Source: Escherichia coli (lineage in GTDB: Bacteria; Pseudomonadota; Gammaproteobacteria; Enterobacterales; Enterobacteriaceae). Taken from it: a DNA stretch of 64,000 nt. A program made the position numbers. The stretch lies in assembly GCF_050920415.1 (NCBI RefSeq), contig NZ_CP169309.1; one strand, written 5' to 3'. This document shows, one piece after another, positions 27,001 through 28,392 of this stretch (positions are counted from its first letter, which is position 1; each line of letters begins with the position of its first letter).

Positions 27001-28392
27001 GTACTGTGGTGTTCCATGACACCAGTGTTGATGAGTACTTTAAAATCGGCTCGACTATCAAAACAGACCGTGAGATTGAGCTGGATGGCGTAACGTATCC
27101 GTACGTGACAATTGATGTCTCTTCGAAATCGCACCCGTTCTATACAGGGAAGCTGAGAACAGTGGCATCAGAAGGAAATGTTACACGATTCACCCAACGT
27201 TTTGGTCGTTTTGTTAGCACGAAAAAGGGGGCGTGATGAAAGTCCTTAACTCTCTGCGTACCGCAAAAGAACGCCATCCAGACTGTCAGATTGTGAAGCG
27301 AAAAGGACGGCTGTATGTGATTTGTAAATCTAATCCACGTTTTAAGGCCGTTCAGGGGCGTAAGAAAAAGCGTTGATTCATAATTCGCCGAATTAACGAT
27401 ATTTGTCTGATTAATAATCAGACCGGATTAATGTTGGTGTGTTTATAACACCAACATTAATTTCCTGGGGATATATTCTTCCTGTTCATTTGAGGTCAAC
27501 TGCCTGACGTTTCTCTCCGAATATTCCATTATCTTAATGTTGACTTGTTGACCAACTTCGCCCCTGTATGCTGGTATCAACTCTCTTTTAGACTGAACAA
27601 GCCACTCCGCCCCCTCCCTTTGCGGAGCAGCCTGCATTTACACTCAAACTGTTAAGAAGATAAATGTGGTAAATCTGTTGGTACTAACATAAAAACGTTT
27701 ACGCCACAGGAACAGCCTGATCCACCGGTAACCCCATCGCCGACGTTCGAGTGCCAGTTAGAGTAACGCGCACAGATGACTGCACGCAGTGCCCTGTCAA
27801 AGAGGCCATCGTTCCTGTGACAGCTGGCAGCCTTCGTTTAACTTCACTTAATTTGGCTCTTGGGGGGCTTACCGAACAGATGACGTAGTCACACCTATTC
27901 AATTTATCACCACTTATTGGAGTAAACACCCATAACCATTTTGTGCGGCATGTTAATCCATTAAAACACCTTATTGATTGTCAAATCTTCTTTAATGATG
28001 GCCAATAATAGTTTTATGTTCTATTTATTATCATTAAAAATTGTTTTTTTACTAGTCGAGCACAAAACGCATTAAGACTATTCCTAACACCTCAGGGCAA
28101 AGTTCCTGGCTAATATAAAATGCAAGTAAGAATTGAACGTTATATTGCCAATAACCTTATGAAACTGAATGTCTTTTTCTTCTTATCAAAAAAGCAATAT
28201 TTTCATTTTTAGTAAATATTGACTTAACCATGGAATTCCTTTTCTGTTCACATATTGACACTCATCAGGAAAAAAACATAAATTTAAGCCCAATCGAAAA
28301 TAATTAAAACTTAATCTCGTTTAACCTATATTGATATGTGCTACGTATCTTATTTACTTCCGATTTACTAACAACACTGAATGTACCTGTAA

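What the first reader, a model, noticed from the sequence alone, without database searches (positions are those of the whole stretch)
27405..27461. Hairpin downstream of ykgO is conserved in the degenerate copy through compensatory substitutions
After ykgO there is a 19-bp palindrome (GTCTGATTAATAATCAGAC) and a 14-bp-stem hairpin (ATTAATGTTGGTGT / ACACCAACATTAAT). In the decayed copy (46067..46099) the hairpin stem is ATTAATGCTGG / CCAGCATTAA: both arms changed yet pairing is retained, which suggests selection on structure (RNA element or protein-binding palindrome) rather than on sequence. Neither has a canonical U-tract.
Basis: seen in the sequence. Interest (0 to 1): 0.45.

Follow-up and report, generated by a model that had tools for sequence, protein, structure and literature searches.

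The report
Terminator hairpin between ykgMO and ykgL
The hairpin after ykgO is a real, conserved stem-loop that marks where convergent transcripts of the zinc-starvation ribosomal-protein operon ykgMO and the opposite-strand ykgL RNA end; it is an ordinary terminator-type element whose RNA 3' end already appears in published E. coli maps.

Summary
The window is E. coli chromosome. The 19-bp palindrome (27405-27423) and the perfect 14-bp hairpin (27427-27440 / 27448-27461) are exactly where stated, 29 and 51 nt after the ykgO stop. The hairpin also lies inside the 3' end of the annotated opposite-strand ORF ykgL.

The copy-1 versus copy-2 comparison shows one compensatory pair (T-A to C-G), one wobble and two broken pairs. 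Random substitution gives at least one compensatory pair 23% of the time, so that comparison alone proves nothing.

Wider sampling does show constraint:
- All three states C-G, U.G and U-A exist at that pair across Escherichia. U.G is in about 2215 E. coli genomes and U-A in about 2834.
- A second pair covaries in E. albertii.
- Between species the arms are 79-86% identical and the flanks 47-65%.

Two published K-12 datasets place a Rho-insensitive RNA 3' end 2-4 nt past the stem, but on the ykgL strand; ykgMO is repressed in those conditions.

I read the hairpin as a bidirectional terminator or 3'-end-defining stem-loop between convergent transcription units. Two other hairpins in the window have the same architecture. 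The palindrome is specific to E. coli copy 1, is not Zur-like, and is unexplained. Low interest.

The parts
27427..27461 (.). Perfect 14-bp hairpin with a 7-nt loop, foldable in transcripts of both strands. It has a GC-containing core (GTTGGTGT/ACACCAAC) on a base of six A-U pairs (ATTAAT/ATTAAT).
   Evidence: Hairpin energy is -17.4 kcal/mol on the + strand and -16.0 on the - strand.
27462..27464 (+). T-run after the stem on the ykgMO-sense strand. It is TTT here, TTTT in K-12 and most E. coli, and TTTTT in L097. Together with the basal AUUAAU it forms the only U-rich tail. Its length polymorphism is what shifts the frame of 'ykgL'.
27423..27425 (-). Window positions equivalent to the RNA 3' ends mapped in K-12 on the ykgL strand: Term-seq at 312325 (window 27425, RNA ends ...ACACCAACAUUAAUCC) and TRS peak at 312327 (window 27423). 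They lie 2-4 nt past the stem.
   Evidence: Supplements of PMC7815308 and PMC10687069. Coordinates were transferred through the K-12 annotation and alignment A1.
27405..27423 (.). 19-bp palindrome GTCTGATTAATAATCAGAC in the ykgO 3' UTR. In RNA it forms an 8-bp stem with a 3-nt loop. It is specific to E. coli copy 1. Function unknown.
   Evidence: Its origin (a 6-nt deletion plus a T-to-G change) was inferred from the alignment. The outermost pair varies without compensation.
26973..27376 (+). ykgM-ykgO operon (L31B and L36B). The hairpin starts 51 nt after the ykgO stop codon at 27374-27376.
26943..26965 (.). Zur box in the ykgM promoter; the exact palindrome TGTTATAACATAACA is at 26948-26962.
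   Evidence: Zur repression of ykgMO is described in PMC9825181.
27411..27637 (-). Annotated ykgL, called 'frameshifted' in this strain. Its 3' end overlaps the palindrome and the hairpin. It is probably a non-coding or spurious ORF that marks a convergent transcript.
46066..46100 (.). Copy-2 hairpin: 10 contiguous pairs TTAATGCTGG/CCAGCATTAA, then a mismatch and 2 more pairs. It keeps the state seen in E. albertii (26 of 28 arm positions identical).
45854..46128 (+). Decayed second copy: the 3' part of ykgR, then a 676-bp deletion relative to copy 1 (Zur box, ykgM and most of ykgO, flanked by TTTTAAG in copy 1), then the ykgO tail and 3' UTR.
   Evidence: It is present in 914 of 5426 E. coli genomes.

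Best explanation
The hairpin is the shared 3'-end-defining stem-loop between two convergent transcription units: the Zur-repressed ykgM-ykgO operon (+ strand) and the 'ykgL' RNA (- strand). In other words, it is a bidirectional terminator-type element.

Because the sequence is an inverted repeat, it folds in nascent RNA coming from either side. The GC-containing 8-bp core, sitting on A/U-rich basal pairs, halts and releases RNA polymerase and then protects the 3' end from exonucleases.

This has two consequences. The roughly 1000-fold induced ykgMO transcript ends about 90 nt after the ykgO stop instead of running on through ykgL towards ecpR. Transcription on the ykgL strand is largely kept from running antisense into ykgO and ykgM.

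Shown: the structure, its conservation, and 3' ends on the ykgL strand in K-12. Inferred: termination of the ykgMO transcript, and termination as opposed to trimming.
For: 1. Position. The hairpin starts 51 nt after the stop of the last gene of the operon. Aseev et al. draw a terminator at this place (PMC7297116).
2. Mapped 3' ends. Two independent K-12 datasets place an RNA 3' end 2-4 nt after the stem on the ykgL strand: Term-seq at 312325 in two of the three growth-condition sheets, and TRS at 312327. The end is marked 'No' for Rho dependence.
3. Convergent overlap. ExcludonFinder lists ykgL-ykgO as a convergent overlap.
4. Same architecture nearby. Two other perfect hairpins in the window sit between convergent genes and have an A/U-rich base with a GC core: 21074-21106 (GyrI-like gene and fdeC) and 36102-36134 (ykgJ and yagU).
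5. Constraint across Escherichia. The arms are 79-86% identical while the flanks are 47-65% (p = 0.017 to 1.4e-4). 92% of pair cells are paired, and pairs 8 and 13 have changed on both sides.
6. Population. About 5049 of 5061 E. coli genomes that carry the locus have one of two intact haplotypes.
7. Other genera. Among the 78 non-Escherichia loci, 13 have a canonical terminator-like site within 130 nt of the ykgO stop, and several more have a GC-rich hairpin that the simple scan does not call.
8. RNA-seq. In zinc-starved E. coli Nissle, counts are about 370,000 for ykgM, 51,000 for ykgO and 16,700 for ykgL, all induced about 600-850-fold. Per nucleotide, ykgL has about one fifth of the ykgO signal. 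That is what is expected if most ykgMO transcripts stop after covering only the first 50-55 nt of the ykgL annotation. This is my inference; the strandedness of the library is unknown.
9. Known class. Bidirectional terminators between convergent E. coli genes that need a stem-loop but do not look like canonical intrinsic terminators have been described (10.1101/2022.10.23.513370).
Against: - No 3' end has been mapped on the ykgMO strand, because the operon is repressed in the published conditions.
- The consensus scan does not call the site a terminator.
- The U-rich tail is weak and is not conserved across Escherichia: AUUAGCAUG in the L092/L005 lineage and AUUAACUUAUC in E. albertii.
- On the ykgL strand the tail is only AUUAAUCC.
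- A Rho-dependent region about 140 nt further on (312466+) shows that some ykgL-strand transcription passes the hairpin.
- Covariation statistics are weak, with 8 related sequences.
- The Term-seq read counts at this end (749-865) are low.
Confidence: 0.65

Rival explanations
1. The hairpin is only an exonuclease barrier. Transcripts terminate further downstream, by Rho or otherwise, and are trimmed 3'-to-5' back to the stable hairpin. The hairpin then sets the mature 3' end and stabilises the RNA but does not release RNA polymerase.
For: There is no canonical U-tract, and the tail is not conserved between Escherichia lineages. The mapped end is only 2-4 nt from the base of the full stem. A Rho termination region lies about 140 nt downstream on the same strand (file 2). 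From my own knowledge, trimming of Rho-terminated transcripts back to stem-loops is well described in E. coli (Dar and Sorek 2018).
Against: The 3' end is flagged as not Rho-dependent in PMC7815308 file 3. Architecturally identical hairpins sit between other convergent pairs in the window, and the T-run on the ykgMO side is TTT to TTTTT in all E. coli sampled. The two roles are not exclusive.
Confidence: 0.2
2. Neutral relic. The inverted repeat has no function. It persists in copy 2 and in relatives only because too little time has passed, and the compensatory pair is coincidence.
For: The copy-1 versus copy-2 comparison is within chance (P = 0.23 and 0.15). Stem and non-stem positions diverge equally. 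Copy 2 has two broken pairs, loses another in O157, and is truncated inside the right arm in strain MLI108K3.
Against: The arms are far more conserved than the flanks between species. RNA 3' ends map to the hairpin. A perfect 14-bp hairpin is not expected by chance.
Confidence: 0.08
3. A DNA palindrome, or pair of palindromes, bound by a dimeric protein such as Zur or another regulator or nucleoid protein, acting on DNA rather than RNA.
For: Two adjacent perfect palindromes share ATTAAT motifs. The location is between ykgMO and the ecp regulatory region.
Against: There is no Zur-box similarity. In about 44% of E. coli genomes the hairpin arms are not symmetric at the DNA level (T opposite G), which an RNA helix tolerates but a DNA palindrome does not. 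The 19-bp palindrome is missing in E. albertii, in L092/L005 and in copy 2. I could not match either palindrome to any regulator motif I recalled (Fur, CRP, FNR, ArgR; from memory, spacing does not fit).
Confidence: 0.04
4. The arms are conserved because they encode the C-terminus of YkgL.
For: In K-12 the annotated ykgL CDS (312112-312339) runs through the hairpin and stops inside the 19-bp palindrome.
Against: The reading frame across the hairpin differs between K-12, the window strain and O157. Stop codons interrupt it in L092, L005 and E. albertii. The annotation pipeline marks ykgL as frameshifted, or replaces it with a different call, in every non-K-12 strain I inspected. No NCBIfam model matches it. 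The mapped RNA 3' end lies 12-14 nt before the K-12 stop codon.
Confidence: 0.02

Closest known systems
Rho-independent (intrinsic) terminators of E. coli
   Same: A stable stem-loop shortly after the last stop codon of an operon. The tail is U-rich if the basal A-U pairs are counted. The 3' end lies 8 nt after the GC-containing core and is insensitive to Rho inhibition.
   Different: There is no uninterrupted U-tract after the full 14-bp stem. The stem is only 5/14 G-C. The tail is not conserved among Escherichia lineages. The consensus scan does not call it.
Overlapping bidirectional terminators between convergent gene pairs (SEnd-seq, Ju et al. 2019; collision model in 10.1101/2022.10.23.513370)
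   Same: The site lies between convergent transcription units. The palindrome folds in both transcripts. It is not Rho-dependent and does not look like a textbook intrinsic terminator. The literature reports that a stem-loop is required to position the ends.
   Different: Only one of the two 3' ends is mapped here. One partner (ykgMO) is silent in most conditions, so collision-driven termination cannot be the general mode. I could not check whether this pair is in the SEnd-seq list.
Protective 3' stem-loops of Rho-terminated or processed transcripts
   Same: A stable hairpin with the RNA end 2-4 nt from its base, and a Rho-dependent region downstream on the same strand.
   Different: The end itself is scored as Rho-independent. 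A U-rich tail is present on the ykgMO side.
Convergent excludons (ExcludonFinder, PMC12288877)
   Same: ykgL-ykgO is listed there as a convergent overlap in at least 50% of K-12 RNA-seq samples.
   Different: The overlap may be no more than the shared hairpin and 3' UTR. No mutually exclusive regulation has been shown.

Membership tests
Intrinsic (Rho-independent) terminator | Stable stem-loop with a short loop, just downstream of the last stop codon of the operon | tested here: met
   14-bp stem, 7-nt loop, -17.4 kcal/mol, starting 51 nt after the ykgO stop.
Intrinsic (Rho-independent) terminator | U-tract of about 7-9 nt directly after the stem | tested here: inconclusive
   The scan does not call it. 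After the full stem the sequence is UUUCC here and UUUUCC in K-12. After the 8-bp core the tail is AUUAAUUU, with 5 U in 8. On the - strand the tail is AUUAAUCC. The tail is not conserved in L092 or E. albertii.
Intrinsic (Rho-independent) terminator | RNA 3' end mapped at the hairpin and independent of Rho | tested here: inconclusive
   Met for the ykgL strand from published data. No data exist for the ykgMO strand, so the claim for the operon itself is untested.
Bidirectional terminator between convergent genes | Lies between convergent transcription units, and the hairpin folds in both transcripts | tested here: met
   ykgMO is on the + strand and the ykgL RNA on the - strand. Both strands fold.
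Bidirectional terminator between convergent genes | 3' ends of both convergent transcripts map to the two sides of the same hairpin | not testable with these tools
   Only the ykgL-strand end is in the public tables I could read. Confirmation needs 3'-end mapping under zinc limitation.
Structured RNA supported by covariation | Significant compensatory changes across homologues | tested here: inconclusive
   Two of 14 pairs have double changes (pair 8: C-G, U-A, U.G; pair 13: G-C, A-U). The covariation score is 0.138 against 0.097, reached by 6 of 500 shuffles. The count of pairs with double changes is reached by 35 of 500 shuffles. There are 8 related sequences, and 9 pairs are invariant.
Rfam RNA families | Match to a curated covariance model | tested here: not met
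   Only sub-threshold chance hits: GcvB at 18.4 bits against a gathering score of 42, and mir-15.
Zur box | TGTTAT-N3-ATAACA-type palindrome | tested here: not met
   The only exact match is at 26948-26962. Nothing in 27405-27461 matches with up to 3 mismatches.
REP/BIME or other dispersed palindromic repeats | Many copies per genome | tested here: not met
   Median of 1 place per genome and a maximum of 4, in 5061 genomes.

The most novel reading that the evidence does not exclude
The hairpin, together with the E. coli-specific 19-bp stem-loop before it, might be selected on the ykgMO-sense RNA for something beyond termination. One possibility is a zinc-starvation-induced 3'-UTR-derived small RNA or mRNA-stability module. 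Another is a binding site for L31B or L36B that feeds back on the operon.

Hints, all weak: three of the four non-Watson-Crick variants are U.G on the + strand, and the + strand hairpin is the more stable one in every copy-1 lineage. L31B is reported to act on an RNA hairpin in the rpmE leader (PMC9825181).
Probability: 0.06. Interest if true: 0.45.

Novelty: already known. Interest (0 to 1): 0.12.

Why it matters
It matters little beyond annotation.

- It gives a defined 3' boundary for the ykgMO transcript, which is now used as a zinc and calprotectin biosensor promoter system (PMC12279244).
- It indicates that 'ykgL' is better treated as a convergent non-coding transcript, or a spurious ORF, than as a protein gene.
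- It explains why ykgL appears co-induced with ykgMO in RNA-seq.
- The coexistence of C-G, U.G and U-A at one stem position, with both U.G and U-A common in E. coli, is a tidy small example of compensatory evolution through a wobble intermediate. It is a single site.

Tried and rejected
- Rfam scan of 25500-29000 at E up to 10: nothing meaningful.
- Zur-box pattern: matches only the known promoter site.
- Dispersed-repeat idea: rejected, 1-2 copies per genome.
- ykgL coding constraint: rejected.
- Mimic of the L31 operator in the rpmE leader: that operator is described as a long irregular hairpin with two bulges (PMC7297116), unlike this perfect stem. The sequences were not compared directly.
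- TERMITe Term-seq supplements: no entry for ykgO or ykgL. PMC9023263 has no supplements held.
- Ju et al. 2019 could not be retrieved under the id I guessed.
- My first ykgO translation used the wrong frame, so one search is void. It was redone.
- Megablast of the L005 haplotype against the E. coli genomes: no match.
- The metagenome scan with a ykgO variant not found in E. coli gave only 3 loci: two like E. albertii and one like L005.
- The exact-protein look-up of YkgO gave only E. coli-type haplotypes, plus one new loop variant, L098.
- A literature search for EcpR TTCCT boxes was mis-specified and returned nothing useful.
- No paper in the held library links ykgO with an Hfq-bound small RNA.

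Full report
**Where this is.** The window is the chromosome of E. coli MFDS1022581 (100% match). The annotated genes, in window coordinates, are:
- ykgR, 26507-26608 (+)
- ykgM, 26973-27236 (+)
- ykgO, 27236-27376 (+)
- ykgL, 27411-27637 (-), marked 'frameshifted'
- ecpR, from 28462

**The observation.** The 19-bp palindrome is at 27405-27423. The hairpin arms are at 27427-27440 and 27448-27461, perfectly complementary, with a 7-nt loop. The 57-nt stretch folds at -25.9 kcal/mol with z = -7.1. Perfect hairpins with arms of 12 bp or more occur at five places in the window and never in 30 dinucleotide shuffles. In K-12, ykgL (312112-312339) stops inside the 19-bp palindrome.

**The second copy.** Copy 2 consists of two blocks that are adjacent to each other:
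- Block A: 26540-26673 matches 45854-45987 at 91%. This is the end of ykgR and the sequence downstream of it.
- Block B: 27350-27489 matches 45989-46128 at 77%, without gaps. This is the last 27 nt of ykgO and its 3' UTR.

The 676 bp that separate the blocks in copy 1 (Zur box, ykgM and most of ykgO) are missing in copy 2. In copy 1 that segment is flanked by TTTTAAG. Copy 2 is present in 914 of 5426 complete E. coli genomes.

**Pair-by-pair comparison of the two copies.** Of the 14 pairs:
- 10 are unchanged.
- Pair 8 changes T-A to C-G (compensatory).
- Pair 12 becomes U.G.
- Pair 1 (A.C) and pair 13 (C.C) are broken.

I placed the observed 32 differences (15 of them transitions) at random over the 140 positions. 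At least one compensatory pair arises in 23% of trials, and at least 12 of 14 pairs survive in 15%. The stem differs at 5 of 28 positions and the rest of the block at 27 of 112.

**Wider comparison.**
- Other genera. I fetched 80 loci that encode YkgM relatives, one per species. The hairpin motif occurs only in the two Escherichia loci. Of the other 78, 13 have a canonical terminator-like site within 130 nt of the ykgO stop. Several more have GC-rich hairpins, and many have a convergent gene directly after ykgO.
- Within E. coli there are two major haplotypes. The K-12 type has U-A at pair 8 and a perfect stem, in 2834 genomes. The O157/Nissle type has U.G at pair 8 on the ykgMO-sense strand, which is C.A on the ykgL strand, in 2215 genomes.
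- Other Escherichia. A metagenome contig of the L005-like lineage (L092) has C-G, while L005 itself has A.G. E. albertii (L004, L091, L093) has C-G, and in addition pair 12 is U.G and pair 13 is A-U instead of G-C.
- Copy 2 keeps the E. albertii-like state, with 26 of 28 arm positions identical.

The most economical history is C-G, then U.G, then U-A in E. coli copy 1. The intermediate is still carried by about 44% of sampled genomes.

**Formal counts.** On 8 distinct sequences, 92% of pair cells are paired, 2 pairs have double changes and 9 never vary. The covariation score is 0.138 against 0.097 for shuffles, reached by 6 of 500 shuffles. The stricter measure, pairs with double changes, is reached by 35 of 500 shuffles. 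This is suggestive but not proof.

The stronger signal is conservation of the arms relative to their surroundings:

| Comparison | Arms | Flanks | One-sided p |
|---|---|---|---|
| L092 vs E. albertii | 86% | 47% | 1.4e-4 |
| K-12 vs E. albertii | 79% | 55% | 0.017 |
| K-12 vs L092 | 86% | 65% | 0.026 |

The constraint is therefore on sequence as well as on pairing.

**The constraint is not a coding constraint.** The reading frame through the hairpin differs between K-12, the window strain and O157. It is interrupted by stop codons in L092, L005 and E. albertii. The annotation pipeline marks ykgL as frameshifted, or makes a different call, in every non-K-12 strain I opened. No NCBIfam model matches YkgL.

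**Experimental evidence from the literature.**
- Supplementary file 1 of Adams et al. 2021 (PMC7815308) lists a Term-seq 3' end at K-12 312325 (+) in two of the three growth-condition sheets. The surrounding sequence is ...GGAAAATTAATGTTGGTGTTATAAACACACCAACATTAATCC|GATCTGATTA. This is the ykgL strand and corresponds to window position 27425. It is 2 nt after the full stem and 8 nt after the GC-containing core.
- File 3 of the same paper marks that end 'No' for Rho dependence. File 2 lists a Rho-dependent region at 312466 (+), antisense to ykgO and ykgM, so some transcription passes the hairpin.
- An independent method (TRS, PMC10687069) reports a terminus at 312321-312329 with its peak at 312327, and prints the same hairpin.
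- Neither dataset has an end on the ykgMO strand. That is expected, because Zur represses the operon in those conditions (PMC9825181 and PMC7297116).
- ExcludonFinder lists ykgL-ykgO as a convergent overlap.
- In calprotectin-treated E. coli Nissle, ykgM, ykgO and ykgL are the three most induced genes. Normalised counts are about 370,000, 51,000 and 16,700. Per nucleotide, ykgL carries about one fifth of the ykgO signal. That fits ykgMO transcripts covering only the first 50-55 nt of the ykgL annotation. This is my inference, and the strandedness of the library is unknown.
- Aseev et al. draw a terminator after ykgO in their Figure 2A.

**Architecture.** Two other perfect hairpins in the window lie between convergent genes and have the same build, an A/U-rich basal helix around a GC core:
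- AATAATGGCGTTGA..TCAACGCCATTATT at 21074-21106, between a GyrI-like gene fragment and fdeC.
- ATAAAAATGGCGC..GCGCCATTTTTAT at 36102-36134, between ykgJ and yagU.

In such elements the A-tract of one strand is the U-tract of the other. Here the ykgMO-sense tail is AUUAAUUU (AUUAAUUUU in K-12 and most E. coli, with a fifth U in L097). The ykgL-sense tail is AUUAAUCC. The consensus scan does not call the site, and the tail is not conserved in L092 or E. albertii. The site therefore fails the strict definition of an intrinsic terminator. It resembles instead the non-canonical bidirectional terminators described between convergent E. coli genes (10.1101/2022.10.23.513370), or a protective 3' stem-loop.

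**Which strand is selected?** In every copy-1 lineage the + strand hairpin is the more stable one:

| Haplotype | + strand (kcal/mol) | - strand (kcal/mol) |
|---|---|---|
| K-12 | -17.4 | -16.0 |
| O157 type | -18.7 | -13.5 |
| L092 | -20.3 | -19.2 |
| E. albertii | -18.7 | -13.7 |

Three of the four wobble variants are U.G on the + strand (pairs 2, 8 and 12). One is G.U on the - strand (pair 1). This leans towards selection on the ykgMO-sense RNA, but 3 against 1 is not significant.

**The 19-bp palindrome.** Alignment of the Escherichia lineages suggests that it arose in E. coli in two steps. The first was a 6-nt deletion, which copy 2 shares. The second was a T-to-G change, found only in copy 1. 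It is absent from E. albertii, from L092/L005 and from copy 2. Its outermost pair varies without compensation: G-C, G.T and A.C. It has no resemblance to the Zur box. I have no supported function for it. It may be an accessory 3'-UTR stem-loop, or nothing.

**Verdict.** The structure is real and under constraint. It acts as a 3'-end-defining, terminator-type stem-loop shared by convergent transcripts, and its RNA end is already in public 3'-end catalogues. Interest is low.

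Noticed in passing
window 27411-27637 (-): The annotated ykgL is probably not a protein gene. Its reading frame is not conserved within E. coli or across Escherichia. In K-12 the mapped RNA 3' end lies 12-14 nt before its stop codon. A T3/T4/T5 run polymorphism right next to the hairpin shifts its frame.
   Followed up: partly
window 45854-46128 compared with 26540-27489: The decayed copy is a ykgR-ykgMO segment with a 676-bp deletion that removed the Zur box, ykgM and most of ykgO; the lost segment is flanked by TTTTAAG in copy 1. The two retained blocks differ strongly in divergence (91% against 77%), which I cannot explain. Gene conversion or constraint on ykgR are possibilities.
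   Followed up: partly
L087 38203-38306 (E. coli MLI108K3): In this strain, homology to copy 2 ends inside the right arm of the copy-2 hairpin (...ACGCCAG|AACCC). An AbiEii/AbiEi toxin-antitoxin island starts there. In the window the same neighbourhood carries drt3b instead. This looks like a variable defence-gene hotspot bordering copy 2.
   Followed up: no
window 46241-46276: A 13-bp perfect (15 with wobble) hairpin GTCATTTGTCAGG..CCTGACAAATGAC followed by AATTTTGAGT. It is the only terminator-like call near copy 2 and lies just before the convergent hypothetical gene 46334-46612 (-).
   Followed up: no
window 21074-21106 and 36102-36134: Two perfect hairpins with an A/U-rich base and a GC core, between convergent gene pairs (GyrI-like fragment and fdeC; ykgJ and yagU). 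They are likely bidirectional terminators of the same build as the one studied.
   Followed up: partly
window 4140-16600: A small phage-like island interrupts rclA. It carries an integrase, a primase, an Icd-like protein, an SSB, a major capsid protein, a head decoration protein and a PerC-family regulator. A 16-bp perfect palindrome lies at 12025-12059, inside the DUF4222 gene.
   Followed up: no
window 27462-27483: Two TTCCT pentamers 12 nt apart lie directly after the hairpin (TTCCTggggatatattcTTCCTg). The second is kept in copy 2. I recall, from memory only, that EcpR is reported to bind TTCCT boxes upstream of ecpR. This was not verified, because my literature search was mis-specified.
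   Followed up: no
window 18000-18014: A Zur-box-like sequence TGTTATTATATAACT, with 1 mismatch to TGTTAT-N3-ATAACA, lies inside the aldo/keto reductase gene at 17710-18579.
   Followed up: no
K-12 312466 (+), equivalent to window about 27284 (-): The literature reports antisense RNAs across ykgMO. PMC7815308 lists a Rho-dependent region antisense to ykgO and ykgM. PMC3175480 reports the candidate small RNA ECS017, about 275 nt on a northern blot, antisense to the ykgM promoter. Transcription on the ykgL strand may feed these.
   Followed up: no
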